DNA from: a virus
Taxonomy: Duplodnaviria > Caudoviricetes
Length of the DNA stretch: 64,000 bases
Direction: 5' to 3' (one strand)
Virus record (IMG/VR): IMGVR_UViG_3300031851_000001
Numbering within the stretch: the stretch's first letter is position 1; each line of letters opens with the position of its first letter. The notes under the pieces are model-generated. The model searched no databases. It was not told the origin of the DNA and saw nothing but the letters and a program-made list of their open reading frames with translations. Made by a program: the position numbers and the translations under genes. Below are positions 1-16,967 of this stretch, piece by piece.

Positions 1-3000
1 ATCACCGTAGTTATAGTTTGTACCATCTGGTGTGTAATCATTAATCATAGATGTAATAATGTTATTGAAGGAATCCTGAGCTCTAGTAAGTGCTACACCG
101 GAAAGCTGTGCCTCGATGTCTTTTTGTACATATCTGATTCCTTCAATTGTTTCGGCAAGTTGGTCCTCAATAACCTTATCAGCACCTACAGTACCAATAC
201 GATATGATTTACCGATATACTTACCATTGTATGTTGAACCTGTTTGAACATCTCTTCTAACCGCATCAATAATAAAGCCTGCATCTCTTGCGCATTTCGC
301 TTCATCAAATGTGTAGTTATTATCTCGTACGAATTGAATAATCTCTTCTTGGATAAACGTTCTGTTCCATTGTAGAGATTTACGTGCGAATGTTCTAGCA
401 GGATCCATTTTTGGTTTAGTTAGTAAGTTCTCTGTAGGCAATGCCTTAGGAGTTTTCTGACTAATATCTAATGAACCTCTGTAATCTGGAATTACTAATC
501 TGTCATCAACAATATTCGCTATAACCATTGCTAGGTCAGATGCGATTGTTCCTGTTGCAGTATCAGCAGCTTGAAGTGATACATCTTGGTATAGGATGTT
601 ACCATCAATTTCTGAAATCGCGTCAGTTAAAGCAGATACGAATGTATGAGCTCCGGTATATGCTCCAGCATTTCCAACCCACATAGTAATCGTTGTTGCA
701 TCAGCACCAATAATTGGGCATGCTCTGTTATAGAAGCGATGATGTGCTTCAGGGCTTGCATGGTTAGTTGGTCCTGATCCTGTATCACAAGAGAACGTAA
801 TTGCACTTGGTTTGAACCAAACGTAATCGTCTGTTGTTAATGAGTGAGTACCAATGGTAGCAACCATAATACCTGTAACAGGATCGTATGTTGCGCCAGT
901 TGGAGTAAATCTTGCTCCAAAGATTGGTTCTTGAACTTCGTTCTTAACAACTTTTTCCATTACACTCGCTAGGTGAGTAAATGCTAGTCTTGTTGGTTCT
1001 CTCTGATATTGTGGTAATACGTTAATAGCACCTTCAAAGTAGTATCTTGCATTGAATATTGTAGCAGAGTCTCCGCCATATTCTAAGTCTTCTGAGATCG
1101 CGTCAACAATGTAACCTGTATCTCTTGGACATTTCTCTAGGCTGTACGCTAGGCCGTTATATTGTTCTGAAATATACTCGTTGATTTCAGTTTGGTATTT
1201 AACAGCTTGACCTTTGATTGCTTCAAACTCTGCACCTAATGTATAGTTTGCAGTGAAAGTATCAAACGCTGGTTCTACGATAGCAGGAATTGTGCCATCA
1301 TTTTCTCTGATAACACCACCAACATCTGCGAATAATTTTTCAGCATGTTGAGCAACTGCAGGTTTAATAGATCTTCTAACACCGTCAGCTAATGCGCTTA
1401 CGAATGAATGTACCTTATCAACTCTAGCTTCACCAACTTGTAATGTAATAGTTGTTGGAGTAACTGAGTCAATTCTAACTGGTTTGTTGTAGATTGGATC
1501 AGTTGGTCTAGGATGCGATATGTTAATTGGTGTGGCATCAGTTGGTGATGTTGGGCAAGATAGTGTAATCGCGTTCTCTGCAAAGATTACATAATCCTTT
1601 TCAGTAAACGAGTGAGTACCCAATGTCATTGTCATAACGCCAGTATTATGATCGTATGCAACGTCTGTTGGTGTATAAGCCTCTGCCATATTTGCTACAT
1701 TCACTGCATCAGCAGTAACCGATACAAATGTATGTACAGTTTGTGGCTCATGTTTGATTGCATTAGCGGTTGCACTTACGAATGTATGTACTGAACCACT
1801 TGCGCTTCCTGCATCACCTACGTTAAATGTCATTGTACCAGTTTGGCGTCTGATTGAATTAGCAGTTGCTGATACGAATATATGAGCACCATTATATGGA
1901 GATGGTCCAACATTTAATTTGAATGTATCAGTTGTAACATCTGAAATTTCTAACCAACGATTAGATGCAAAATCAGTTGCCCTTGGATAACCTTTTTCAA
2001 CCGTGTTACCATCAAGTACGCATGTATATGTTAACCCGTAATCAGCAATCATTACATAATCGCCATTACTAAATCCGTGATTAGCAACTGTGATTGTTGT
2101 ATCTCCACTTGCTGGGCTATGAACCGCGTTTGTTGGCGTATGTTGTGTTTCACCTACTGCAGTAATTGATAATGATTTGCCAGTTAATGGATCTCCAACT
2201 CTTGGATATGTATGCTGAGTTGCGTTACCATCTTGATCGCATGTGAATGTAAACGAGTTATTTTCTAGAACAACACCGTTTCCAACTCTTAATCCATGTT
2301 GACCAACATTAACTATCATTACACCAGTTGCCGCATCATAGTTAGCAGATGTTGGTGTAAAGTATTTGTTAGGGCCAGAGGCTGCAGCGTCTAGTGTAAC
2401 TGTGTTTGCACTTACATCTTTAACCAAATATGTTTTTAATGCGTATGGATCAAGTCCTGCACGAGGATATGTTTTAGCAGCATCATCACCGTCCATTGCA
2501 CAAGTGAATGTGAATGAATTTGGTTCCAATGTAACTCTATCATTAAGTGCAATGCTGTGTCCCGGCATAGTCATTACGAAATCGCCATTAGCAGGATCGT
2601 AAGATGCAGTTGTTGGTGTGTATGTTGTTGTTTCAACAATAGTTTGAGTTACCGCAACTTGTAGTGGAGTAACAACTTCGTTTCTAACAATTTGACCAAC
2701 TAAATCTGATGCGAAGAAGAATGCTTCCGATGTTGGAACAATTTCTTCATCATCTAATACTGGAATTGCATTTTCAAAATATAGTTTAGAGTTTGTTGCG
2801 CTTAACGCGTTTGAACCGTTTTGTACATCCCAAGCGATGAGGTCAACAAAGATACCCATATCTCTTTCGCATGCAACAGTGTTATATACAAAGTTTGGAT
2901 AGTTGGCTGTAATCCACGCAATGATTTCTTTTTGGATAAACGCTTTGTTAGTAAATATTGCTTTACCTGCTTGACGATGTTCTGGTGATATTGTTAAGTC

Positions 3001-6000
3001 ACCGTATATTGGTGCATCAGCGCCAGCAATACCGTTTGACATAATATCAATAACAGTATCAAAGGCAGCATTGGATCTTGTGATCGCTGTTGCATCAGTT
3101 AATACGTCAGTTGCGATTTTACCTTTGAGCCAAGTGATAGCACCAACAGTTTGAGTTAACTGTTCGTTAATTACCGCATTAGCACCTACAGTACCAATTG
3201 TGTAACCTTTACCTACATAGTAAGCGTTAACAGTTGAGTCAGTTAGAATATCTCTAGCAACCGCATCTAAAATTAAACCTGTATCTCTAGAACATTTAGC
3301 GTTGTCATAGACGAAGTAGTTATTTTCCATCCATAGTTTAACTTCGTTCTGAAGATATGATTTGTTTTTCTGTAGAATACGAGAAGCGTATGTACCTTGT
3401 TCTTTTGCACCAACCTGTACAACCGCACCTTCATCAGCACTTACGAATGTATGTGGATCAGTGTTAGTTCCTGCATTTCCGCAGTTTACTGTGATTGTGT
3501 TTGTTGTCACTGCACTAATTTCTAATGGTAATTGATAAGCCTTATCACCAATACGTGGTGAGTAATCAGTACCACCGCCATTATGAGCACAGCTGAATGC
3601 AAAGCTTAATGGTTGTAATTCAATATGATCGCCGAGACCCATACCGTGGTCAGTAATAGTAATAACCATCTCGCCACTTACTGGGTCGTATGTAGCTGTT
3701 TCTGGTGTAAAGGCTTTAATAACTCTAGCAGAGTCTGAGAAGAATAATGCGTTTGAGTCGATTGAGTCTGGGGTTGCCGATACGAATGTATGGTTGTTTG
3801 CATGCCCACCAGCATTACCAACATTAACAGTAATTGTGTCTGATGTTGTTCCAGTAACTCTTACCGGTTCTTTATATGCAGGGTGGTCATTTAGTGGTGA
3901 AAGGTCTGTACCTGTTATACCACCAACATCACAACTAAATACCATTGACTCAGGTGCGATTTGGATCCATTTACCAACCGGTAAATCGTGTTTCCCAATA
4001 GTAATTTCTAACTCACCAGTTACTGGGCTATATGTAGCTGTCTGAGGAGTAAATTTACCAGTCCACATTCCTGCTTCACGTATTGCATTAGTAGTTGCTG
4101 ATACGAAAGTATGTGCCGATGTATCACTTGACTCACCAACATTAACAGTAATTGTTGTTGAAGTTCTTGCAGAGATTGTAACTGGCTTTTTATATGCAGG
4201 GTGCATTTTTTCAGCTTGGATACAATTATCAGATGCACTTACGAATGTATGAGCACCGCCGCCATCAACAATTCCACCTACATTCATATAGATTTTTGTT
4301 GCGTCAACTTTTTCAATAGTGATTTGTTTCTTATAGAAAGGGTGATGTGATTCTGGCGCAGGGTGGTTTGTTACATCACCATCAAGTGCGCAAGTAAAGA
4401 TAATTGAACTTGGTTTAAATTCAACCTTATCACCAACCTTCAGCGTATGTGCACCAATAGTTGCGCTAAACTCACCAGTTGCCACATCGTATGAAGCGTC
4501 TGTTGGAGTAAAGTTTAAGAATTGAGTAGCAGGATAAGCATGCTTTGTTGCATTGCCATCAAGTGCACATGTAAATACTAAACTATGTGGTTCAATATAA
4601 ATTTCATCGCCAATGTTAAAGTCATTAGAACCAATCGTCATAACAACTGAACCTGTTGCAGGGTCATATACAGCGTTAGTTGGTGTATATTTTTTACCGT
4701 TGTTATTTAGTAATCTTGACATTTCATCAAAAGAAGCATTTGATCTATCAATAGCAATTGAGTTATCACCAATAAATGTGGCAGCCCTTGCTTTTAAATA
4801 ATCAATAGAACCAACAGTTTGTTCTAACTGTTCAGTAACACTTACCTCACCAGATTTAGTACGGTAAGCAGCGCCAGTTTGAATTGCATTATAGTTTGTA
4901 CCAAGGATTAAGTCACGTTGTACTGCAGGTAAAATATATTCTTCAGTATCTCTGTGGCATTTTTTGCTATCGTAGAAATACCATTCGTTATCTGCCCATT
5001 CCATCATGTAGTCTTGGATATATTCTTTATTTGCTTGTAGCATTTTACGTGCGTTACGTTTATCTACAGATATACCAGAGTTATCAGAATATGTCAATAG
5101 TTGTCCGATAACTGATACTGCATTATCTTTAGCTTCAACAAATCTATGTTCGAAGTTAGCAGCCGTCAGTCCTGGGTTAACCGTGATAGTCTTAGCTGAC
5201 ACAGCAACGATTGGAAGCGCAGCCAAGTAAGCTTTTTCTGATTTGCGTGGATGGCTAATTTTTGTTTTAAAGTTATCACTTGAACATGTGAATGTAAATG
5301 ATTCTTCAGCAAGGTTAACATATCGGCCAACAGTTAAATCGTGTGTACCGATAGTGATAACCATCATACCAGTTGTTGGGTCGTACGTAGCCTTAGTTGG
5401 TGTATATTTGTCGCCTGAGTTTGCAATCGTATCAATAACGTTATTAAATGCAGAGTAAGCCGATGTAGCTGCTGGTGCAGAGTTGGCTTGAATTAATTCG
5501 TCAGTTGTTTTGCGTAATCTCTTAAACGAAGCGATTGTTTCGTTGCGTTGGTTTTCAAGGCTTGTTCTTGCAGTGTTAACATAATATGCTAATCCAGCGT
5601 TTTCAGAATTATAATTTGTATCTAACAACATGTCGTATTTAACGGCAGGTAAGATATATTCCTGAACATCGCGCTCACACTTAACACTATCGTAAGCATA
5701 GAACTCGTCGTTATTGTCGATCCAATCAACAAAATCATTAATGATTAAATCTCTGTTAGATTGAACAAGTTCTCTAGCAGCCGTTTGGTCAGACTTACCA
5801 GTATCTGAGAAGATAATTGGTTCAGCCGCAGCCTCGCCATTTTGTAAAATGTTAAGAGTTTCATCAAGTGATGTGTTAATTCTGTTCGTTAACTCAGAAG
5901 ATGCGTTTGCAAAAATACCACCTGCTGAGCTGGCGATAGAGTCTTTAAGATGGTTAATAGAACCAACAGTTTCAGTTAATTGCTCATCAACTACAAGATA

Positions 6001-8562
6001 TGAAATTGGTGAACGGTATGAAATACCATTTAACCGACCCCAGTAGTTACCTTTTGTAGCAATATCGTAACCAGTGTTATCAACGATAATTCCTGTATCA
6101 CGGAAACATTTATCAGCATTATAACCTTGATAACCCAAACCACCAGACGCAGTGTTTGATGTCAAGTAGTAAACCATATCATCAACAATTTCGTCTGCCT
6201 TTTCTGTCAATACGTCTGCGAATGCAGAGTTAGCAATCAAGTTACTTTGATTTGCCTCGGCTGGTCGAATAATAACAGTTGAACCACGAGCACGCATTGA
6301 AATGTCACCGAACTGAGAACCTGAGTTGTTCAAAGTCATTTGACCACCATCTAAGGCGAAGAACGCTTGGCGTGTAAAGATTGATAATGAACCAATACCG
6401 TTAACACCAGCACCGTTTTTAGCAACGTATCCTGTACCATTTTGAGTACGAGGTGTAAAACCAAAACATAATACGTATGTATATAGTGAGTCGGTATCAA
6501 GTTGTGCTCTGTCTGCTAATAGACAACCGCCGCCTCGACCAACTAATCTGTTAGGGAAATCATCAATACCAATTGACTCGATAGTACCTGAACCACCACG
6601 TTGTGCGTATAGAACATCTCCAACTTCAACGTTGCCTTTTAGGTTACGAACATAAATTTGTCTGTTTGCATCAATATCATCGATGTATGATACATAACCT
6701 GTTGCACCGCTTGAGAATGTTACCTCATCGTCAACTTCGAATTGAGATTGCGCAGAGTGACCTGCTACTAAATAGAATTCTTGACCTAAATCAAGGATGG
6801 TACCTTTAGAGTTAAATGGATTTAACGGAGGTTCAACATCAAGTCTATTAAAGTTTGAAAGCTGAGTAGAGTCACGAAGATATGGTGAACGTCTTAGTAG
6901 AGCACCCGGTCTGTAAGCGATAGCAAAACCACCTTCAGGTTGGTCAAAGTTATCAACTTCAAAGTTCATATATGAGAAACCTTGTACATAACAACCAGAT
7001 CCAACAAGAACACCATTTGTTCTTTCGTATCCTTTTTTCTTTTGAATAACAGTAGCATACTGACCAGCGGTTGATGTCATGGAACAATCATCAGGTAGCA
7101 TAATTGGTTCATCAACATAGTAAGTACCGGGACCTACTGAAATGTGAACAGCATCATTAATTGCGTTACGGTTATATGATCCACCAGCTTTTTCTAAAGC
7201 GATTTGTTCAGCACGCTTTAGCGTACGAACTGGCTGTAAAATAGTTCCTGGGTATTTGTCGTCACCATCTGAAGCAACATGTACTTTAAGTGATTTTTCT
7301 GTTTTCTTAGAAAATTCTTGATACAACTGACGATAAGTCATTTTCTCTGTATCGCCAGTCTTGACGTTTTTCAGAGCAAAGTAACTATCTTCATCAAGCA
7401 TTGGCTCAAATTGTTTAGTAATGTTCATATCAAAGTCGACAAAAGTACTTTCTTCGATTGTCGAATTAGATACCACACCGTCTTTAAATTCTGAGTTTTC
7501 AATAACAGATTTTTGTTGGCCAAGTCCTTCAGTAGATGAACTTGTGATAGTCATATTCTGAGCAGTTACATTATCCAAAGTACCTTGGAATGACGAGTCA
7601 GTAATAACGTTATTAGCAAGTGTACCATCTTGGATTGTAGTATTAGTAAATACGTTATTATTACCAGTACCATCAGAGAAATCTGAGTTTGTAATGCTAG
7701 TATTATTAGCAGTGCTATCGTTAAGTTGTGAATTCGTAATAACGATATTGTTCGCTGTTGAGTCAATGATAGATGAGTTACTTGTTACAGTATCCCAAAT
7801 CAGACCATTAGCAAATCTTGAGTTTGTAATTGTTACGTTATCTAAATCAGTATCACGGATATCGGAATTAGAAATATCTGTATCAACGATAGTAACATTT
7901 GATACTGCAGTGTCTCTAATTGTACCATTGCTAAAGTCAGTAGTAATAATTACTGAGTTTGACATTAATGCATCTTCGAGAACAATTTCGTCAATCGTAA
8001 TATTAGTAAGGATTAAGCCATTCGCTGTACCTTGTTCAATAGCAACGTTCGCAAAGGATGAGTTATCAACTTGCGAATTAGTAAAGATATTATTATTGCC
8101 GGTTCCATTAGAAAAATCGGATTGGTCAATCGCCATGTTATTGGCAGAACTATTAAGGATTGTTGAGTCGTCAATAGTTGAATTAGTTAAAACAACATTG
8201 TTACCAGTACCATCATTAAACTCAGAATCAGTAATTACTGAATTCGTAATAACAAAGTTATTAGCATCAGAGTCTCTTAGATCTAATTCAGTACCAAAGC
8301 TTCCAAGTAAGGAACCGCCAGAGAATACAGAGTCGTTTATTTCAACATCATTGAGAGTTGAAACCGACATAATGACGTTTGAAATAGTTCCGCCAGTAAT
8401 TTTAATATTGTTGAAAATCTCGAATTGTAACGCTTGAACCAGTTCTTTACGTGTGATGTTCTTTGTACCATCATCACCTTGGATCAAGTTAACAATAACG
8501 AAAAGATCCTCAGATCTTGTATTGGCGCCTGTTATCGGACCGAGTTCTGAAATCAATGACAT
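1..8562 (-). CDS. Giant virion structural/fibre-like repeat protein (>=2854 aa, C-terminus beyond left edge)
   Basis: ATG at 8562 (MSLISELGPITGANTRSEDLFVIVNLIQGDDGTKNITRKELVQALQFEIF). The frame was open wherever I translated it (1-120, 1681-2640, parts of 4141-4560, 7440-8562). It is absent from the ORF track, consistent with no stop inside the window. It contains pentapeptide repeats, a pectin-lyase-like region (VHVASDGDD...PVRTLKRA...ISVGPGTY), ~10 TPTxAxYDPxTG...FTC...HTFVSA modules and ~7 KCxRD helical modules. A late promoter lies upstream. Confidence 0.85.
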   Translation of the reverse strand, partial: MSLISELGPITGANTRSEDLFVIVNLIQGDDGTKNITRKELVQALQFEIFNNIKITGGTISNVIMSVSTLNDVEINDSVFSGGSLLGSFGTELDLRDSDANNFVITNSVITDSEFNDGTGNNVVLTNSTIDDSTILNSSANNMAIDQSDFSNGTGNNNIFTNSQVDNSSFANVAIEQGTANGLILTNITIDEIVLEDALMSNSVIITTDFSNGTIRDTAVSNVTIVDTDISNSDIRDTDLDNVTITNSRFANGLIWDTVTSNSSIIDSTANNIVITNSQLNDSTANNTSITNSDFSDGTGNNNVFTNTTIQDGTLANNVITDSSFQGTLDNVTAQNMTITSSSTEGLGQQKSVIENSEFKDGVVSNSTIEESTFVDFDMNITKQFEPMLDEDSYFALKNVKTGDTEKMTYRQLYQEFSKKTEKSLKVHVASDGDDKYPGTILQPVRTLKRAEQIALEKAGGSYNRNAINDAVHISVGPGTYYVDEPIMLPDDCSMTSTAGQYATVIQKKKGYERTNGVLVGSGCYVQGFSYMNFEVDNFDQPEGGFAIAYRPGALLRRSPYLRDSTQLSNFNRLDVEPPLNPFNSKGTILDLGQEFYLVAGHSAQSQFEVDDEVTFSSGATGYVSYIDDIDANRQIYVRNLKGNVEVGDVLYAQRGGSGTIESIGIDDFPNRLVGRGGGCLLADRAQLDTDSLYTYVLCFGFTPRTQNGTGYVAKNGAGVNGIGSLSIFTRQAFFALDGGQMTLNNSGSQFGDISMRARGSTVIIRPAEANQSNLIANSAFADVLTEKADEIVDDMVYYLTSNTASGGLGYQGYNADKCFRDTGIIVDNTGYDIATKGNYWGRLNGISYRSPISYLVVDEQLTETVGSINHLKDSIASSAGGIFANASSELTNRINTSLDETLNILQNGEAAAEPIIFSDTGKSDQTAARELVQSNRDLIINDFVDWIDNNDEFYAYDSVKCERDVQEYILPAVKYDMLLDTNYNSENAGLAYYVNTARTSLENQRNETIASFKRLRKTTDELIQANSAPAATSAYSAFNNVIDTIANSGDKYTPTKATYDPTTGMMVITIGTHDLTVGRYVNLAEESFTFTCSSDNFKTKISHPRKSEKAYLAALPIVAVSAKTITVNPGLTAANFEHRFVEAKDNAVSVIGQLLTYSDNSGISVDKRNARKMLQANKEYIQDYMMEWADNEWYFYDSKKCHRDTEEYILPAVQRDLILGTNYNAIQTGAAYRTKSGEVSVTEQLEQTVGSIDYLKARAATFIGDNSIAIDRSNASFDEMSRLLNNNGKKYTPTNAVYDPATGSVVMTIGSNDFNIGDEIYIEPHSLVFTCALDGNATKHAYPATQFLNFTPTDASYDVATGEFSATIGAHTLKVGDKVEFKPSSIIFTCALDGDVTNHPAPESHHPFYKKQITIEKVDATKIYMNVGGIVDGGGAHTFVSASDNCIQAEKMHPAYKKPVTISARTSTTITVNVGESSDTSAHTFVSATTNAIREAGMWTGKFTPQTATYSPVTGELEITIGKHDLPVGKWIQIAPESMVFSCDVGGITGTDLSPLNDHPAYKEPVRVTGTTSDTITVNVGNAGGHANNHTFVSATPDSIDSNALFFSDSARVIKAFTPETATYDPVSGEMVITITDHGMGLGDHIELQPLSFAFSCAHNGGGTDYSPRIGDKAYQLPLEISAVTTNTITVNCGNAGTNTDPHTFVSADEGAVVQVGAKEQGTYASRILQKNKSYLQNEVKLWMENNYFVYDNAKCSRDTGLILDAVARDILTDSTVNAYYVGKGYTIGTVGANAVINEQLTQTVGAITWLKGKIATDVLTDATAITRSNAAFDTVIDIMSNGIAGADAPIYGDLTISPEHRQAGKAIFTNKAFIQKEIIAWITANYPNFVYNTVACERDMGIFVDLIAWDVQNGSNALSATNSKLYFENAIPVLDDEEIVPTSEAFFFASDLVGQIVRNEVVTPLQVAVTQTIVETTTYTPTTASYDPANGDFVMTMPGHSIALNDRVTLEPNSFTFTCAMDGDDAAKTYPRAGLDPYALKTYLVKDVSANTVTLDAAASGPNKYFTPTSANYDAATGVMIVNVGQHGLRVGNGVVLENNSFTFTCDQDGNATQHTYPRVGDPLTGKSLSITAVGETQHTPTNAVHSPASGDTTITVANHGFSNGDYVMIADYGLTYTCVLDGNTVEKGYPRATDFASNRWLEISDVTTDTFKLNVGPSPYNGAHIFVSATANSIRRQTGTMTFNVGDAGSASGSVHTFVSATANAIKHEPQTVHTFVSVTADAVNVANMAEAYTPTDVAYDHNTGVMTMTLGTHSFTEKDYVIFAENAITLSCPTSPTDATPINISHPRPTDPIYNKPVRIDSVTPTTITLQVGEARVDKVHSFVSALADGVRRSIKPAVAQHAEKLFADVGGVIRENDGTIPAIVEPAFDTFTANYTLGAEFEAIKGQAVKYQTEINEYISEQYNGLAYSLEKCPRDTGYIVDAISEDLEYGGDSATIFNARYYFEGAINVLPQYQREPTRLAFTHLASVMEKVVKNEVQEPIFGARFTPTGATYDPVTGIMVATIGTHSLTTDDYVWFKPSAITFSCDTGSGPTNHASPEAHHRFYNRACPIIGADATTITMWVGNAGAYTGAHTFVSALTDAISEIDGNILYQDVSLQAADTATGTIASDLAMVIANIVDDRLVIPDYRGSLDISQKTPKALPTENLLTKPKMDPARTFARKSLQWNRTFIQEEIIQFVRDNNYTFDEAKCARDAGFIIDAVRRDVQTGSTYNGKYIGKSYRIGTVGADKVIEDQLAETIEGIRYVQKDIEAQLSGVALTRAQDSFNNIITSMINDYTPDGTNYNYGD

Positions 8563-10245: not shown

Positions 10246-11418
10246 TTACTTTCCTACTTTTTCGTTCAATTCCTTGATAGCTTCAATTAACAAACCAATT
10301 ACATTACCGTGTCTGACCGCAAAGATTGCCTCGCCAGTGTCTGGGTCCGTTGTTTCATAAACAGCTTCAGGTAAAACTTCCATAAGTTCTTGTGCCATAA
10401 CGCCGGTCATTGGTTCGTCAGGTTTTGATATATAGTTAAATGTATAACCACCAAGTTGTGAAACTTTATCTAAGGCATTATTAATTGGTTCAATATTTTC
10501 TTTTTGTCTTTTGTCTGAAACAGTACCAAAACCGGTAACTTCACCTGTTGAGAAAACTGATGCAAAAGTAACATTAGAGTTTGTAGCAACAGTTTGACCA
10601 ATTTCAATAAGGCCGGATGTTGTGTTATATGTTACGCCAGTACCACCAGACAATGCAGCCCGTACTCTTGCTGTAGTATAATAAAGATTGTCATCGCCTT
10701 CGGTTAAACTATCTGTATCGTGGTTTGTTAATGAACTAACTGTACCAATAACGTTACCTGTAAATGTAGCAGGAATTCCAGCCTGACCACTTTCAAGCAC
10801 CTTATTTGATACCCCACTATCGTCTACTTTATATACGTCACCTACTAAGTTACCTGTTAAAGTTCCACTAAAGTCATCTGCAGTAACACTATTTGCTGAC
10901 ATATCAACGGCTGTGATATCGTTAACAGTTAAATCGCCGGTAACTGTCATATCCTCAGTTACATTAAAATTAATTACGCTTAACGTACCAGCTGGCGTTA
11001 AAGATAGCTTTGGCGTACCTGTTCCTGTATCAATATTAAAATTAGCATCATCTGAATTATCAATACCAACATCCCAAGATATTGTACCATCAGTATATCT
11101 TGTTTGACCACCGCCTGCGCCATATGAAAATGTAGCTACTACCTGATCGCTTGCGCCGATAATATTTAAAGGTGAATTAAATGTTACTGGAGCACTTGCA
11201 GTGAAAGATGTAATTGTGTCTGCTTCAAATAACGTATCAGCAATTAATGTATTAGCTTGAAGATCTCCAGCTAAATTTACATCGCCTGTAGTTAAATCAC
11301 CGGAAACGGTTGCTGTGACAACTTGCTCACGCATAAGATCAACCATTTCATTGGTCTTATCAAACCAATTTTGAAACGTCTGAGTAGTCGTAATGTTTTG
11401 AATATTTGTTTTTGCCAT
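10246..11418 (-). CDS. Tail fibre protein with C-terminal intramolecular chaperone (peptidase S74)
   Basis: C-terminal SDKRQKENIEPINNALDKVSQLGGYTF...GVMAQELMEVLPEAV...GLLIEAIKELNEKV is the S74 chaperone signature. Confidence 0.85.
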   Translation of the reverse strand: MAKTNIQNITTTQTFQNWFDKTNEMVDLMREQVVTATVSGDLTTGDVNLAGDLQANTLIADTLFEADTITSFTASAPVTFNSPLNIIGASDQVVATFSYGAGGGQTRYTDGTISWDVGIDNSDDANFNIDTGTGTPKLSLTPAGTLSVINFNVTEDMTVTGDLTVNDITAVDMSANSVTADDFSGTLTGNLVGDVYKVDDSGVSNKVLESGQAGIPATFTGNVIGTVSSLTNHDTDSLTEGDDNLYYTTARVRAALSGGTGVTYNTTSGLIEIGQTVATNSNVTFASVFSTGEVTGFGTVSDKRQKENIEPINNALDKVSQLGGYTFNYISKPDEPMTGVMAQELMEVLPEAVYETTDPDTGEAIFAVRHGNVIGLLIEAIKELNEKVGK

Positions 11419-11424
11419 TTAACT

Positions 11425-11607
11425 CTACTTCTCTATTCGATCTAATCTATCGCAAACAACTGCCAATAGTTCTTTAATTTCCTGAACTTCATTACCTAAT
11501 TTAGTTACCTTACGGTGTAAAGCTCTTTCTTGTTTATATTTATTCAAACTTGCTGCGTCTGTACTTAAAACAGCTTTTGAAAATGTATGACGAACAACGT
11601 TTGACAT
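11425..11607 (-). CDS. Small conserved coiled-coil protein downstream of VrlC
   Basis: 60-aa ORF coupled to VrlC; similar small ORFs follow VrlC in marine T4-like phages (from memory). Confidence 0.65.
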   Translation of the reverse strand: MSNVVRHTFSKAVLSTDAASLNKYKQERALHRKVTKLGNEVQEIKELLAVVCDRLDRIEK

Positions 11608-14600
11608 TATGTTAAAGCTAACGCTCGCATATCTCGTACTAACGATGATTTTGATATATCGTTAGAAATCATTTCAATTTTAATAGCAAACTTTCTATAA
11701 CCAACATGTGTTCCGCCAGTGCTTGTATAGTTAAGCACACCGTTTACATCTTTATTGGCATCAGGTAATTGCCATTCGTATTCTCTAAAATCATTTTGAT
11801 TAGACGCAGTAAACATATTTACGCCTTTATATAATTCCAACTCAATCCAAGGAATTGTATCAAACGCCGCGGCATCATATACATTTTGTGGTCTAATATA
11901 AACTTTAATATCAGTACCGCTTGGGCGGTGAGCAGTTAAAATAACATTAATATCTTCAGCATCTAAATCTTCAGAAAGTTCAACTGTCTGAGAAATGTAC
12001 TTCGATGTAGTATCAGAACTACTTGTTACTAACCATTGGTATGACATTAGTGTAGCGGTTTCCAAATCAACTATTGGAGATGTTGTATCGCTAGAACCGT
12101 TTGTCATATTCACTTTAATTTCAAAAGGTTTTAAGTCAGATGGATCATTTGATTTAGAATAAACAACAACACCTTTTTCTGTAAAGTAGTTTGAAGCACC
12201 AAATTTCATAGGTTTGTTATATGTAGTTAACGTATCAGCAGGTGGTACGAATGTACCTGATACTGAAGTTGTAGTTTTACTATCATTTGATTTGTTAATA
12301 AGTGGTTGTACATAACTTAAGTTAATATTATCAACTGTACCAATTGTTCCTTCGACGCCACTTGAAGAACCAGTAATAGTACCAGCCGCGCTGAATTGTT
12401 TGGTTGACGTAGCCGAACTATTTTGTAAGTGCATTACTGATCTATTAAGAGTATTGTAGAATGAAATGGTTCCTGAAACAATCGGTGTACCAGTACCGTT
12501 GCCAACATCAAATGATACTGGTTTAGTTGTAGTCATTTCAGTTGCACTATCAACACTCGCAATTTTAAATATTTCTTTTATTGAACCGCCTGCATTAATA
12601 ATCAGAATTTTGTCACCGGCGGCGTATGTGTCACCTAGTGCCGTACCGTTAATTGTTGATGTACCATTAACCATCGTTACACCAGCTGCTGTTCCACCAG
12701 TGAGTGATAATGTTTGATATACTTCTTCACCTTGAGTAAATCGACCATCCCAATCTGAAAGCGTAAGGAATTCATGATCGTTATTTGTTAGCGTTACAGT
12801 ACCATCTGATGCGCTAAACTGGTGGCGGTATAAAGTGAATTTTAAATCTTCATCTTGTACTGATTTCCAAGCTCGGTTGTTTGTTGATGTAAAGAGAACA
12901 CCGTCACCCCAGTCTTGAACAACTGCTTGACCGTTTGTTGCTCCCGGAGTTAAATCAACACCACCAACTTTAGATGTAAATACTAAGTAATTAGGATCGT
13001 TCGCATCCGGTTGAACAACAATTGCATATTCTTTTTCAATATCCAATCTGATTGGAACATTAAATGTAATCGTTGTTACCTCTGATGCATCGTCTGAAAC
13101 ATTAACATCAGCTGGATTTAAATGAACTTTAGAGAATGGCATAATAACTGACGAAGGATAACCGTTGACAACTTCACGTAACATAATAGTTACGCCGTTA
13201 ATTTCACTTTTACGTTTAAAGAATACATCAACTTTAGAAGCAAATACTGATGTTGCCCCTTTACCCATGCCTTCTTTAATAAAGAATGTTTGTGCTAGCG
13301 GATCAATTGCGAAAGGTCTTCCTGCAACTGTTCTCGTTGTCGTTGATGTTATGACTGAAGTTTCAGGCATTCTTACTGATGAAGTTAAGCTAACTTTGTC
13401 AACATTAATGTTATATGCGTTATACGATAAATCACCGCGTGATGTTTTTGCAGAGTCAATGCTTGAGTATTGGCTAACGTCAACAACTGTTAATTGTCTT
13501 TCGCCAACAAAGAATGTACCTGATGGTAATTCAAACACGGCTCTTAATACACCATTAGCATCGGTAGTAACCGCGGCATTTAATGCTCCAAATTTTTCAA
13601 CATCTCTTGCTCTTGTTGCTGAGGTGGTCCCAGGTCTTACTCTGTTATTTACGTCAACTTTATCAAAGAAAAAGTAATGTCGAGTATTAGGACGTAAGCC
13701 TGACATATAAACTTTAATATCTCTTGCTCTCATATATGGTTCAAATTGGAAGTCAGAAACAAAATCTCCAACACTTGAAGTTTGTTGATTTGATCCAACA
13801 TTAAGAGCTGTAGTTTGAGTAGTAGTTGATGTTACATCTTGCCAAATATTATTTCTAACTCTGTTTCGTACTCTACTTGCAGCCGTAACGACGTCTCGCG
13901 TCATTGGAATAAACGATTGTAAATCTTCAATAAAGTTATTAAATGGCGCAACAATATCAAAATCTAATCTCATAGGATTAGTTGTTACATCTTGTGCCAT
14001 ATCGTGGTCTGGAGATAAAGCACCAACACCGTCATATGACCAGTAATTTGATACACAATTTCTAAAGTTTGTAGCATATGTCTGCGATAATACTTTAACG
14101 TTTGCATTTCTTGTCAAGGATGCTATGTCTGCGTCGTCTGTTGTTGGGAAGATAGACGCTGATGAAGTTGATTTATATTTTAAATCTAGTGGAAACGTTC
14201 TTAATGCAGGAGTAAGTGTTTTTGTATCACCGCGAATAGCTGCCGAGAAATTAGGGTTTTCTAAATTAGCAATAGTAGTATCATTAAATGGATCTACTAG
14301 GAAACCGTTTTTAAATCTTGTTAAACCATTTTCATCAATAACATTTAAGTTTTGAGTGTCTGCCTCGAGTTGGCTTAGGCTAACATAATATTCTAAATTA
14401 TCTACTCGTTTTTCTACGCTAGCAATATCTTCCATAGTATATGTTTTCGTACCAGCAGACTTAGCAGTAACCGCATAGTATGACTTATTTTGACTTGACG
14501 CTTCTACCGGAGATAGTGCTGGATAACCTGGGATTGTAATATGAGAGATAAGGAATTGGTCTGCGCCAATTTTTGGAGGCGAAGGAATTTGTTCTTCTTT

Positions 14601-16967
14601 ACCTTTAACTGTAGCAACTACGCCATATGAGTCAATAATAACTGCATCAGTACGAGCGTTATAAGTTTCAATTTCAGCGTTGACATTACCATTAATTTGT
14701 GGTATAATATAATCATTAGTACTAAATGTTGGCTGTGATGCTCCAACCGCGGCAGTAACAACCGACGCAGCTCCTTCAGTCAATGCAGTGTAGCTTGCCC
14801 CAGCGCTAAGATCAGCATATGGTCTAAAATCAATACATTCTCTTAGTCTATATGTTGTGCCAGTCGTTGATTTGTATACACCCATGTCTGATGTGCGAAT
14901 TTTTTCACTAGGTAATATTGCAGTTGTATCATCAATTGGATAACTGTCAATAGTAAAAAAGTTTGAACCAGTTGAGTTATTAATTTTAAATACTTTAAGT
15001 TGTACTGTATATGTACCTGATGTTGGAACCGGCCGACCTGGGATAAGTTCCATAAAAGAGATATCATAAAAATTGTCTTTTTGGTTTTTATTTAATCTAA
15101 AGCTTTCAGTAAAATCATTACCAAGACTATCTTCAACGCTTATAATGCTGTGTACATCAGGAAATCCAAGACTATATTGAGATACGCCATTATCCCAAAC
15201 AAATTTAATATATGGATTAACTAATACTTTATTATATGCTGTTGCGTCTGTATTGTTGAATATTCTTTTGTTATAATAAACCTCGGCAACAGGATCTGAA
15301 TTATCTGCTGGGTCTAAAGTAATTGTAAGAACTGAATTATTGAGTGATGTTGTATAACTTAGTACATTAATAAGAGTATTAGATGCGTCTACCACAACGA
15401 TATCGCTTTGGTCAACTGCAAAGTCTTCGTTTGCTACGGCGTTAATAACAATTTCATTACTTGAAACATTTACACTTGATGCATGCGCACGAACAGGAAT
15501 AATTAAATCAGTTAAAGTTTTAATACTTCTTGCACCAGTATCAAATATTGTTGGCGCAGTGTTTGTACCTTTGATTTTTGATCCGGAAGGAATTGTGATA
15601 ACGCCTGCAGTGCCAACGATACGTTCAACATTAGCAAATGTATATGATGGGTAGAGTAATTTAACACCAAACAAATACAATCTTGTAGGAGTAATGTTTT
15701 TAGCAAAAGCTTCGCCAATTTTTGTGCCGTTTGCGCGTTGCAGTTCTAGTGTTTCGTATTGTAATCCAATAGTACCAGTAATTGCAGTAACGTCAACGTA
15801 TCCACCATAATTAAGAGATGTTGACTCATTGGCTTGTACGGTGGTAGTAGTAACTTCATCAATTACTGTATCTTGGAAACCTTTGTTTTCAATTCTATAA
15901 CCTTTAATATAAGCTGAGCCTTTTCCGACAAGTGCCGTAAGTTCATCATCTCTGCGTTCTACTAATACTTTAAAATCATCAACAATGTAATCGCCGTTTG
16001 TTTCATATGTACGTTTGGCTAGTTCTTCATTAACAGAGTTAAATTGTGTAACGTCTCTAAGCGTAACGGCCGAGCCATTCTGATACCTAATTAATGTAAA
16101 GAACCCTGCGTCAACATCAGCAACTGCGGTTGTCTTAACGGTTAATGTTGGAACCATTTTAAATCTATCAGCACCCGGAGCGTTTTCATTTTCTGAACCG
16201 TTTGCGTTATCAAATAGGCTGCTATCTTGTAGTGAACTAACAATTGTTTCAGAAACTTCATAGCCAACTGATAAGTCGTCAGGTTGGTTAGTATATGGAG
16301 AAACAACAAGCGTTTGGTCAGCAGCGAATAAGAAGTGACCTTTTTGGAATACGACACCAGCTGCAGCTTGAATACCAAATGATTTTCCTGTTGGAGTTGG
16401 AAGCTGTGTTACCTGAGTTGTTTGAACATTAAGTTGTGTTTCAATAATAGTTGAACCATTATAGCGATACTTATTAATTGTAAGTTCTTCACCAGCAATA
16501 AACGATTTATAACCACTTCCTTCGTTTGTGTTTAAGTAGTTAATAAAAAATGTATTAAGGTTTGGCGGACGAGTTTCAAAACCACGAGCAGCGGATACGA
16601 TTGATGCCTTCAAACCGGAAATTTGTCCTTCAACCTCATACTTAGTTTCGATAGAAGTTGTAGTACCAAGAATTACTTCGTCTGCAACAGAAGGGATAAA
16701 TGTTTCTGGGTCAAAACCAGTTTTGTCTGTTAGCTTAACAAATTCTAAACTATTTAAATTTGTAAAGTTACACCCTTTAACAATGCTACCTTCTTGGTAA
16801 ATATTATCACCAAATTGCTCAACTTGATTTTGAAGAATAGTTTGTAGCTGTGTAAGCTCGCGGGCTTGAATAGCGTAAGCAGGCTTAAACAGAATTTTAT
16901 AGAACTGCTTTTCTATATTGAAATCATCAAAATATGGAGCAATATTTAAATTTTTATTAATAGGCAT
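11607..16967 (-). CDS. VrlC-like (DUF4815) baseplate/virion structural protein
   Basis: N-terminus NLNIAPYFDDF...FYKILFKPAYAIQARELTQLQTILQNQVEQFG is characteristic of VrlC/DUF4815 in marine T4-like phages; 1786 aa. Confidence 0.85.
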   Translation of the reverse strand: MPINKNLNIAPYFDDFNIEKQFYKILFKPAYAIQARELTQLQTILQNQVEQFGDNIYQEGSIVKGCNFTNLNSLEFVKLTDKTGFDPETFIPSVADEVILGTTTSIETKYEVEGQISGLKASIVSAARGFETRPPNLNTFFINYLNTNEGSGYKSFIAGEELTINKYRYNGSTIIETQLNVQTTQVTQLPTPTGKSFGIQAAAGVVFQKGHFLFAADQTLVVSPYTNQPDDLSVGYEVSETIVSSLQDSSLFDNANGSENENAPGADRFKMVPTLTVKTTAVADVDAGFFTLIRYQNGSAVTLRDVTQFNSVNEELAKRTYETNGDYIVDDFKVLVERRDDELTALVGKGSAYIKGYRIENKGFQDTVIDEVTTTTVQANESTSLNYGGYVDVTAITGTIGLQYETLELQRANGTKIGEAFAKNITPTRLYLFGVKLLYPSYTFANVERIVGTAGVITIPSGSKIKGTNTAPTIFDTGARSIKTLTDLIIPVRAHASSVNVSSNEIVINAVANEDFAVDQSDIVVVDASNTLINVLSYTTSLNNSVLTITLDPADNSDPVAEVYYNKRIFNNTDATAYNKVLVNPYIKFVWDNGVSQYSLGFPDVHSIISVEDSLGNDFTESFRLNKNQKDNFYDISFMELIPGRPVPTSGTYTVQLKVFKINNSTGSNFFTIDSYPIDDTTAILPSEKIRTSDMGVYKSTTGTTYRLRECIDFRPYADLSAGASYTALTEGAASVVTAAVGASQPTFSTNDYIIPQINGNVNAEIETYNARTDAVIIDSYGVVATVKGKEEQIPSPPKIGADQFLISHITIPGYPALSPVEASSQNKSYYAVTAKSAGTKTYTMEDIASVEKRVDNLEYYVSLSQLEADTQNLNVIDENGLTRFKNGFLVDPFNDTTIANLENPNFSAAIRGDTKTLTPALRTFPLDLKYKSTSSASIFPTTDDADIASLTRNANVKVLSQTYATNFRNCVSNYWSYDGVGALSPDHDMAQDVTTNPMRLDFDIVAPFNNFIEDLQSFIPMTRDVVTAASRVRNRVRNNIWQDVTSTTTQTTALNVGSNQQTSSVGDFVSDFQFEPYMRARDIKVYMSGLRPNTRHYFFFDKVDVNNRVRPGTTSATRARDVEKFGALNAAVTTDANGVLRAVFELPSGTFFVGERQLTVVDVSQYSSIDSAKTSRGDLSYNAYNINVDKVSLTSSVRMPETSVITSTTTRTVAGRPFAIDPLAQTFFIKEGMGKGATSVFASKVDVFFKRKSEINGVTIMLREVVNGYPSSVIMPFSKVHLNPADVNVSDDASEVTTITFNVPIRLDIEKEYAIVVQPDANDPNYLVFTSKVGGVDLTPGATNGQAVVQDWGDGVLFTSTNNRAWKSVQDEDLKFTLYRHQFSASDGTVTLTNNDHEFLTLSDWDGRFTQGEEVYQTLSLTGGTAAGVTMVNGTSTINGTALGDTYAAGDKILIINAGGSIKEIFKIASVDSATEMTTTKPVSFDVGNGTGTPIVSGTISFYNTLNRSVMHLQNSSATSTKQFSAAGTITGSSSGVEGTIGTVDNINLSYVQPLINKSNDSKTTTSVSGTFVPPADTLTTYNKPMKFGASNYFTEKGVVVYSKSNDPSDLKPFEIKVNMTNGSSDTTSPIVDLETATLMSYQWLVTSSSDTTSKYISQTVELSEDLDAEDINVILTAHRPSGTDIKVYIRPQNVYDAAAFDTIPWIELELYKGVNMFTASNQNDFREYEWQLPDANKDVNGVLNYTSTGGTHVGYRKFAIKIEMISNDISKSSLVRDMRALALT

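What the first reader, a model, noticed from the sequence alone, without database searches (positions are those of the whole stretch)
1690..4700. Russian-doll (nested) domain insertion in the giant virion protein
Seen in sequence: a ~95-aa module recurs ~10 times (TPTxAxYDPxTG...H.L..G...FTC..DG...YPR...TxNVG...HTFVSA..A). Some copies sit inside each other rather than in tandem. At 2620-1690 three modules open in succession, then three closing motifs follow in reverse order. Module 3 is complete and ends HIFVSATANSI. It sits inside module 2 between SITAVGETQ and TGTMTFNVG...HTFVSATANAI. Module 2 sits inside module 1 between ASGPNKY and PQTVHTFVSVTADAV. At 4690-4080 a complete module is inserted after HAYPATQFLN, and the host resumes HPAYKKPVTI...HTFVSA. 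The three insertion points differ. Inference: a self-inserting domain is building a branched fibre, and the conserved His/Cys may bind metal.
Basis: seen in the sequence. Interest (0 to 1): 0.72.

Follow-up and report, generated by a model that had tools for sequence, protein, structure and literature searches.

The report
Self-nested beta-barrels in cyanophage virion protein
A giant tail or baseplate protein of a marine T4-like cyanophage contains one small beta-barrel domain ten times, and in two places whole copies sit inside loops of other copies like Russian dolls, a build known from cyanobacterial RNA polymerase that I found no paper describing for a phage particle protein.

Summary
The ORF at window 1-8562 (- strand, more than 2854 aa, runs off the window) holds ten copies of a ~100-aa module. 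Seven are intact and three are split.

A profile built from the intact copies matches the split ones in complementary pieces:
- columns 2-57, one whole module, then columns 57-103 (residues 1290-1495);
- columns 2-84, columns 3-74, one whole module, columns 74-103, then columns 89-102 (residues 1979-2288).

AlphaFold2 models are confident (pLDDT 92.8 and 88.5). Single solved barrels (Uba1 FCCH, phage endosialidase barrel, FNR-type barrels) align either to the inner copy or across a whole model, so the split halves appear to close one barrel. Coevolution in 342 intact modules puts the N and C termini side by side and packs the invariant His of HTFVSA against the invariant Cys.

The triple nest is colinear in at least 199 cyanomyovirus records. 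Relatives reach four levels by the strict parse and about six or seven by a rough one, and some are branched.

The nests are old, inherited duplications, not an active self-inserting element. Metal binding is untested. The closest known case is the recursive nesting in the SI3 insertion of cyanobacterial RNA polymerase. This scan had already found the same build in other cyanophage genomes.

The parts
1..8562 (-). Giant virion (baseplate or tail-fibre type) protein. 2854 aa lie in the window and the C-terminal part lies beyond base 1.
   Evidence: PHROG 701 'virion structural protein' E 2e-134 and PHROG 5342 'tail fiber protein' E 6e-130. It lies next to baseplate wedge genes.
5113..5409 (-). 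Module 1, intact barrel (aa 1052-1150)
   Evidence: full-length HMM hit
4525..4695 (-). Module 2 (host), N-half: aa 1290-1346, profile columns 1-57, ends after the YP motif
   Evidence: AF2 model m7722724f4ad1. Barrel alignments span the whole model, 1..213.
4213..4515 (-). Module 3, an intact barrel inserted in the b5-b6 loop of module 2 (aa 1350-1450)
   Evidence: Solved barrels align to model residues 58..168.
4078..4209 (-). Module 2 (host), C-half: aa 1452-1495, profile columns 57-101
   Evidence: 80% DNA identity to the same part of intact module 4 (repeat family D11). Halves folded in trans gave ipSAE 0.45 against 0.00 for the controls, rated weak support.
3757..4056 (-). Module 4, intact barrel (aa 1503-1602)
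3418..3714 (-). Module 5, intact barrel (aa 1617-1715)
2374..2625 (-). Module 6 (outer host), N-part: aa 1980-2063, profile columns 2-84. It is interrupted in the b7-b8 loop.
   Evidence: AF2 model m59e161bf366d. Single barrels align across model residues 3..318.
2146..2364 (-). Module 7 (middle host), N-part: aa 2067-2139, profile columns 2-74. It is interrupted in the b6-b7 turn.
1843..2145 (-). Module 8, the innermost intact barrel (aa 2140-2240)
   Evidence: Uba1 FCCH aligns to model residues 163..266 with Z 7.8, rmsd 2.5 A, 77 aa.
1750..1842 (-). Module 7, C-part: aa 2241-2271, profile columns 73-102 (strand b7, loop, HTFVSA)
   Evidence: A long strand at model residues 263-273 joins the end of module 8 to the resumed module 7.
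1699..1740 (-). Module 6, C-part: aa 2275-2288, profile columns 89-102 (PQ-x-x-HTFVS)
   Evidence: E 0.03. PQ, H and F are invariant in 43 orthologues.
1372..1680 (-). Module 9, intact barrel (aa 2295-2397)
613..912 (-). Module 10, intact barrel (aa 2551-2650)

Best explanation
The ten modules are copies of one ~100-aa closed beta-barrel domain. Its shape resembles the FCCH barrel of ubiquitin E1 and the barrel inserted in phage endosialidases. No Pfam family covers it. The modules belong to a giant virion protein of an uncultured T4-like marine cyanophage.

In two places, complete copies lie in surface loops of other copies. The nest is two deep at aa 1290-1495 and three deep at aa 1980-2288. 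The likely origin is in-frame duplication of module-coding DNA into loop-coding positions (inferred).

The barrel's first and last strands lie side by side. An inserted copy therefore leaves and re-enters the host loop at one point, and the host fold survives. The host's remaining strands come after the insert and close the host barrel. Among them is the invariant His of HTFVSA, which packs against the invariant Cys of the N-part.

The product is a stack of barrels in which each is tied to the next by two strands instead of one linker. I infer that this makes a stiffer, more unfolding-resistant arm than a bead-on-a-string array.

The nests are ancient and vertically inherited. In relatives, whole nests have been duplicated as units.

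Shown here: the nesting topology, its conservation, and the predicted complete folds. Inferred: the DNA mechanism of origin, the mechanical role, and the location on the virion.
For: - Sequence: the split modules match the module profile in complementary pieces, 2-57/57-103, 3-74/74-103 and 2-84/89-102.
- Family scale: in 151 representative proteins, 54 of 85 stack-paired N and C pieces are complementary within 5 columns. Random re-pairing gives a mean of 18.7 and a maximum of 30.
- Structure models: AF2 of the triple nest on 43 colinear orthologues gives pLDDT 92.8 and pTM 0.86. The double nest gives pLDDT 88.5.
- Independent model: a predicted BFVD model of the ACG-2014d homologue superposes over all 321 columns with TM 0.86.
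- Fold alignments: single solved barrels of 80-100 aa align in two ways. One class matches only the inner copy (model 1 residues 163..268; model 2 residues 58..168). The other class spans the whole model with only about 80 aligned residues (model 1 range 3..318; model 2 range 1..213). Examples are 6l2u_B (83 aa, rmsd 3.4, Z 6.9) and 4wqm_A (79 aa, Z 7.0). In model 2 the N-half holds at most about 60 residues, so the C-half must supply the rest.
- Coevolution (mean-field DCA, 342 intact modules, Meff 212): strong couplings join columns 2-5 to 99-101, so the termini are adjacent. Of the top 103 pairs, 59, 48 and 28 bridge the three insertion points, including 43-90, 45-88, 10-91 and 55-90.
- Conservation: the triple nest is colinear at 94% coverage in at least 199 phage records. 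Modules group by layer across phages. P0002 has six copies of a four-level nest.
Against: - No model coordinates were available. Strand pairings, distances between termini and the overall shape (rod or compact) were not measured directly. The fold tool reports only the first and last aligned residue.
- For the outer module 6 the returning piece is only about 14 residues, so the range evidence there is weak.
- All fold matches have Z below 8, a level the tool itself calls common.
- There is no experimental structure, and no proteomic or imaging evidence for this protein. Its place on the virion rests on PHROG names and on neighbouring genes.
- The stiffness argument is pure inference.
- Sequence conservation does not differ clearly between layers (62-74% mean pairwise identity), so nothing singles out the inner copy as a binding tip.
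Confidence: 0.85

Rival explanations
1. The modules are above all metal- or ligand-binding units. The near-invariant Cys and His residues would form a site in every barrel, and nesting would mainly serve to array many such sites on the virion surface.
For: In 157 intact modules, His (column 24/25) is 96% conserved, Cys (43/44) 99% and the closing His (90/91) 99%. Every closing piece keeps H-x-F. DCA puts columns 43-45 next to columns 88-91, and columns 10 and 55 next to 90, so Cys and the closing His are probably neighbours.
Against: No metal evidence of any kind was obtained. The first His couples to columns 73-75, apparently at the other end of the barrel, so a His-Cys-His triad is unlikely. 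One Cys plus one His is too few ligands for a usual site. The solved barrels of similar shape (Uba1 FCCH, endosialidase barrel) are not known to me as metal sites (own knowledge). Module 2 of this very protein has Asn in place of the first His. Invariant residues may simply be core or hydrogen-bond residues.
Confidence: 0.25
2. The late HTFVSA segments are not the missing ends of the earlier half-modules. They would form their own small tandem unit, and the 'half-modules' would be truncated, independently folding variants.
For: The last closing piece is short (14 aa) and scores only E 0.03 against the module profile. I could not inspect coordinates.
Against: The profile coordinates are complementary. 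In the double-nest model, single-barrel alignments of about 80 residues span 1..213 although the N-half has only about 60 residues. In intact modules, 28 to 59 of the top 103 coevolving pairs bridge the cut points, so a part cannot form the barrel alone. Both models have high pLDDT.
Confidence: 0.05
3. An active, ongoing self-insertion process (a mobile domain-coding cassette) is still adding layers in this phage.
For: Across the family, inserts occupy at least four different loops, and depth varies from 1 to about 6-7. Insertion has therefore happened several times over evolutionary time.
Against: Within the gene the module DNA copies are only 60-80% identical, with no near-identical pair and no flanking repeats. 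Layers are orthologous between phages that are only 42-60% identical. A 96%-identical relative has exactly the same topology.
Confidence: 0.05

Closest known systems
SI3 insertion of cyanobacterial RNA polymerase beta' (RpoC2): recursive nesting of hybrid-motif (SBHM/HABAS) domains, six levels in Prochlorococcus RpoC2 (PMC13114784, which cites Shen et al. 2023 and Alvarez-Carreno et al. 2024)
   Same: Copies of one small beta-rich domain are inserted into loops of other copies, in the pattern A1-B1-C-B2-A2 and deeper. This builds an elongated multi-barrel arm, and the arrangement is conserved across a lineage.
   Different: The host protein differs: a transcription enzyme against a virion protein. 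No RNA-polymerase chain is among the 50 rows shown for either model, which is no proof of a different fold. The phage module has its own near-invariant Y/G/H/C/P/H/F signature and uses at least four different loops as insertion sites.
FCCH domain of ubiquitin-activating enzyme E1 (Pfam PF16190; PDB 4p22, 9mc4, 2v31)
   Same: It is the best structural match to a single module: Z 7.8, rmsd 2.5 A over 77 residues and Z 7.5. FCCH is itself an inserted domain (own knowledge). The ESM Atlas lists viral clusters carrying PF16190 among the look-alikes.
   Different: There is no sequence match. Pfam gives nothing for any of seven modules even at E 10. Identity in the structural alignment is 13-15%, and Z is below 8. 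FCCH is not known to me to nest in itself.
Beta-barrel domain inserted in the beta-propeller of phage endosialidases (phi92 4hiz, K1F 1v0e)
   Same: The barrel shape is similar (Z 7.2-7.6, rmsd 2.3 A, 81-84 residues). It is a phage tail-spike context, and the barrel there is also an inserted domain (own knowledge).
   Different: That insertion is heterotypic and single-level, into an enzyme domain. There is no sequence similarity (14-16% identity).
Periplasmic adaptor (membrane fusion) proteins such as MacA and EmrA
   Same: Their beta-barrel domain is built from N- and C-terminal pieces with other domains nested inside (own knowledge). These barrels appear among the matches with discontinuous chain ranges: 4tko_B 28..372 and 5nik_D 48..301.
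   Different: The nested domains there belong to different folds (barrel, lipoyl, alpha-hairpin) rather than being copies of one domain. The match is weak (Z 5.7-5.9).

Membership tests
Nested (recursive) domain insertion, pattern A1-B1-C-B2-A2 | The host domain is split into two sequence pieces that together make one copy of the domain | tested here: met
   Complementary profile coordinates 2-57/57-103, 3-74/74-103 and 2-84/89-102. At family scale, 54 of 85 pairs are complementary within 5 columns, against 18.7 on average when re-paired at random.
Nested (recursive) domain insertion, pattern A1-B1-C-B2-A2 | The insert is a complete, independently recognisable domain | tested here: met
   Full-length profile hits for aa 1350-1450 (E 1e-45) and 2140-2240 (E 7e-42). 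Solved single barrels align to exactly these stretches.
Nested (recursive) domain insertion, pattern A1-B1-C-B2-A2 | The N and C termini of the inserted domain are close in space | tested here: met
   DCA on 342 intact modules: the pairs 5-99, 5-100, 4-99 and 2-101 are among the strongest couplings. Not measured on coordinates.
Nested (recursive) domain insertion, pattern A1-B1-C-B2-A2 | The host folds as one compact domain around the insert in three dimensions | tested here: inconclusive
   AF2 gives pLDDT 92.8 and 88.5, and single-barrel alignments span whole models. However, only alignment ranges were available, not coordinates. The halves folded in trans scored 0.45 against 0.00 for the controls, which the tool rates weak.
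Pfam PF16190 E1_FCCH | Match to the family profile at or above its threshold | tested here: not met
   No Pfam hit for the whole protein except Pentapeptide_4 and Phycobilisome. No hit for any of seven intact modules at E up to 10.
Pfam PF16190 E1_FCCH | Same fold as the solved FCCH domains | tested here: inconclusive
   Z 7.8, rmsd 2.5 A, 77 residues, 13% identity. The tool notes that Z below 8 is common.
PHROG 701 / 5342 (cyanomyovirus giant virion structural or tail-fibre proteins) | Match to the family profile | tested here: met
   E 2e-134 and 6e-130. tblastn finds 296 phage records, all Synechococcus, Prochlorococcus, cyano- or marine phages.
Hybrid-motif (SBHM/HABAS) domains of RNA polymerase SI3 | Same domain fold | tested here: inconclusive
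   No RNA-polymerase chain is among the 50 rows shown for either model. A family that is not listed is not excluded.

The most novel reading that the evidence does not exclude
Recursive self-insertion of one barrel would be a general, so far undescribed way in which T4-like cyanophages build long rigid, possibly branched, monomeric arms on the virion without the usual trimeric fibre folds. Each barrel would in addition carry a conserved Cys-His centre, closed only when the host's last strand returns. That centre might bind a metal or form a covalent cross-link, which would make the arm an array of tens of such centres.
Probability: 0.25. Interest if true: 0.8.

Novelty: new variant of a known kind. 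Interest (0 to 1): 0.6.

Why it matters
Domain-in-domain insertion is common. Repeated insertion of a domain into copies of itself, several levels deep, is rare, and the documented example I found is the SI3 arm of cyanobacterial RNA polymerase (PMC13114784).

This case offers a second, unrelated domain family that does the same in a virus-particle protein. It uses at least four different loops as entry points. Depth runs from 1 to 4 by the strict parse and to about 6-7 by a rough bracket parse, and whole nests are duplicated. That makes it a natural series for studying how proteins tolerate insertion, how discontinuous domains fold, and whether double-strand tethering stiffens multidomain arms.

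It also matters for annotation. Standard domain callers see these regions as half-domains or as nothing (no Pfam family). The proteins are among the largest and least understood structural genes of the abundant marine cyanomyoviruses, and they probably bear on host contact.

Tried and rejected
- DNA search against 50,697 phage records found no near-identical genome, so the phage is uncultured.
- Sequence search of the PDB found nothing relevant.
- Foldseek of the whole triple-nest model against the PDB gave no hit at E 0.001 or better, only multi-domain FN3 arrays and weak Uba1 and endosialidase rows. The all-against-all aligner was needed.
- Pfam on single modules gave nothing.
- Halves of host module 2 folded in trans (complex prediction): ipSAE 0.45, best control 0.00, at least 86% of contacts agreeing between runs, partner pLDDT at least 68. 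The tool rates this as weak support. The mark was reached by 58 of 80 solved complexes and 2 of 110 mismatches, but scores of 0.60 or under came from only 7 of those solved complexes and from both mismatches. I do not count it as evidence.
The helical units just before the beta modules stop at profile column about 103-106 of 125. The 50-70-aa tails after the modules score no better than shuffled sequence against the missing last helix. Result: inconclusive.
- Comparing conservation between layers to find a variable 'tip' showed no clear difference.
- The whole genome is not held, so the C-terminal remainder of the protein could not be read. A 96% relative shows one more simple module downstream.
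- Four literature searches for a description of this build in cyanophages found none. Two searches on nested or Russian-doll domain insertion in general gave no phage case either; led to the RNA-polymerase SI3 paper.
Full report
**What is there.** The finding lies in one very long open reading frame, window 1-8562 on the minus strand. It holds 2854 codons and runs off the window. Residue i corresponds to window bases 8563-3i to 8565-3i.

The gene sits directly beside T4-type baseplate wedge and tail-fibre genes. It matches PHROG 701 'virion structural protein' (E 2e-134) and PHROG 5342 'tail fiber protein' (E 6e-130). Pfam recognises only an N-terminal pentapeptide-repeat region and a weak phycobiliprotein-like match. 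There is no near-identical cultured phage. A protein-level search finds relatives in 296 phage records, all of them Synechococcus, Prochlorococcus, cyano- or marine phages. The window therefore comes from an uncultured T4-like marine cyanophage with about 36-39% GC.

**Check of the observation.**
- A motif search finds ten opening motifs and ten closing motifs in balanced-bracket order.
- I built a profile from the seven uninterrupted copies and searched the protein with it (rebuilt from 157 copies).
- The seven intact copies score E 1e-42 to 1e-47.
- The three interrupted copies are matched in pieces whose profile coordinates fit together:
  - columns 2-57 (aa 1290-1345), then a whole module (1350-1450), then columns 57-103 (1451-1496);
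  - columns 2-84 (aa 1979-2062), columns 3-74 (2067-2138), a whole module (2140-2240), columns 74-103 (2241-2271), then columns 89-102 (2275-2288).
- The three points fall in the b5-b6 loop, the b6-b7 turn and the b7-b8 loop of the predicted fold.
- At the DNA level the C-half of split module 2 is 80% identical to the matching part of intact module 4 (family D11).

**Is it real in three dimensions?**
- I collected colinear orthologues of the triple nest from a representative library and from IMG/VR contigs. I aligned 43 of them.
- AlphaFold2 gave pLDDT 92.8 and pTM 0.86. The double nest, with 12 orthologues, gave pLDDT 88.5.
- An independently predicted BFVD model of the ACG-2014d homologue superposes over all 321 columns at TM 0.86.
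- Single solved barrels of 80-100 residues align in two distinct ways. The barrels include Uba1 FCCH, the phi92 endosialidase barrel, a phage FCWL1 head-to-tail protein and FNR-type FAD-binding barrels.
  - One class aligns only to the inner copy: model 1 residues 163..268, model 2 residues 58..168.
  - The other class spans the whole model with only about 80 aligned residues: model 1 range 3..318, model 2 range 1..213.
- In the double nest the N-half has at most about 60 residues. An 80-residue single-barrel alignment must therefore draw on the C-half as well.
- DSSP shows strand 161-167 (leaving module 7) and a long strand 263-273 (returning to it). They look like a two-stranded stalk, but I could not check that they pair with each other.

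**Independent support from coevolution.** I ran mean-field DCA on 342 non-identical intact modules (Meff 212).
- It recovers a barrel-like strand map.
- It couples columns 2-5 with columns 99-101, so the two termini are adjacent. That is the property a domain needs in order to be insertable.
- Of the 103 strongest pairs, 59, 48 and 28 bridge the three cut points. They include 43-90, 45-88, 10-91 and 55-90.
- The parts separated by an insert are therefore interlocked in the intact fold, and the closing His packs near the Cys of the N-part. This explains why every closing piece keeps H-x-F.

**The family.** The module has no Pfam family.
- Near-invariant positions in 157 intact copies are Tyr 98%, Gly 99%, His 96%, Cys 99%, Pro 99%, His 99% and Phe 93%.
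- 498 representative proteins match the triple nest.
- P0002 (4764 aa) has six copies of a four-level nest, with four openings followed by four closings.
- A strict stack parser with a complementarity test finds 71 nests in 31 of 151 proteins. Inserts sit in the b2-b3 loop (5), the b5-b6 loop (7), the b6-b7 turn (14) and the b7-b8 loop (44).
- A rougher bracket parse suggests depths of up to about 6-7.
- P0009 shows an insert of about 530 aa in the b2-b3 loop. That insert itself holds two sub-nests, so it is a branched case.
- In a tree of N-parts, modules group by layer, not by phage. The six P0002 copies group together within each layer (a quick FastTree on 57 columns, supports not inspected).
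- The nest therefore predates the divergence of these phages and was later duplicated as a whole.
- Within the window the DNA copies are only 60-80% identical, and a 96% relative has the same topology. Nothing suggests an ongoing process.

**How it most likely works.** Shown: topology, conservation, confident complete folds, adjacent termini. Inferred:
- Insertion arose by in-frame duplication into loop-coding DNA.
- The host fold survives because the insert enters and leaves at one point.
- The functional gain is mechanical. Each barrel is tied to its neighbour by two strands rather than one linker, which gives a stiffer and more unfolding-resistant arm on the baseplate or fibre.

I could not determine the overall shape. 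Conservation is similar in all layers, so I see no sign of a variable receptor-binding tip.

The Cys and the closing His are probably neighbours. The first His couples to the other end of the barrel, and in module 2 of this protein it is Asn.

**Comparison with what is known.** A 2026 survey of domain insertion reports mostly single-level events. It singles out cyanobacterial RNA polymerase RpoC2, where hybrid-motif domains in the SI3 insertion are nested recursively to six levels (PMC13114784). That is the closest known architecture. The domain family and the host protein differ.

In shape, the single module resembles the E1 FCCH barrel and the endosialidase barrel, both themselves inserted domains, but Z stays below 8 and there is no sequence match. 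A 2010 review notes that cyanomyovirus proteomics found structural proteins of unknown function that may stand in for missing tail-fibre proteins (PMC2984593).

I found no paper describing this nesting in phage proteins. Earlier notes of this scan report the same build in other cyanophage genomes, with the same closest-known system. I reached the same reading through my own tests.

**Verdict.** The 'self-inserting' and 'branched' parts are not supported for this window, and the metal idea remains open. I rate it a new variant of a known architectural kind, with moderately high interest.

Noticed in passing
window 1-6230 (aa 779-2854 of the giant protein): Seven helical units of about 125 aa with a C-x-R-D motif alternate with the barrel modules, and Pfam gives a weak Phycobilisome match. 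The two units that directly precede the nest plus module 9 and module 10 stop at profile column about 103-106 of 125. After those barrels come similar helix-like tails. The barrels may therefore sit inside a helical unit, but the tails score no better than shuffles.
   Followed up: partly
window 7360-8410 (aa about 50-400): The N-terminal part of the giant protein is a long Ser/Thr/Asn/Asp-rich pentapeptide-type repeat region (Pfam Pentapeptide_4, E 4e-9, just under threshold).
   Followed up: no
P0002 (4764 aa, metagenomic representative), aa 278-692 and five further copies: Six tandem copies of a complete four-level nest, each separated by helical units. The whole nest behaves as a duplicating unit.
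   Followed up: partly
P0009 (4419 aa), aa 267-1210: A very elaborate nest. A module opened at aa 512-537 (profile columns 2-27) resumes only at aa 1072 (profile 26-101), enclosing about 530 aa with two sub-nests. It is a branched case and shows a fourth insertion site, the b2-b3 loop.
   Followed up: partly
window 18660-21227 (-): An 855-aa protein in the baseplate cluster with a PHROG 'protease' match over aa 490-806.
   Followed up: no
window 10246-11418 (-): A 390-aa protein whose C-terminal ~100 aa match many PHROG tail-fibre tip families, such as the long tail fiber distal subunit (E 3e-29). It is a likelier receptor-binding tip than the giant protein.
   Followed up: no
window 11607-16967 (-): A second giant ORF (1786 aa) next to the first. 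It matches only PHROGs of unknown function (phrog_358, E 4e-270).
   Followed up: no
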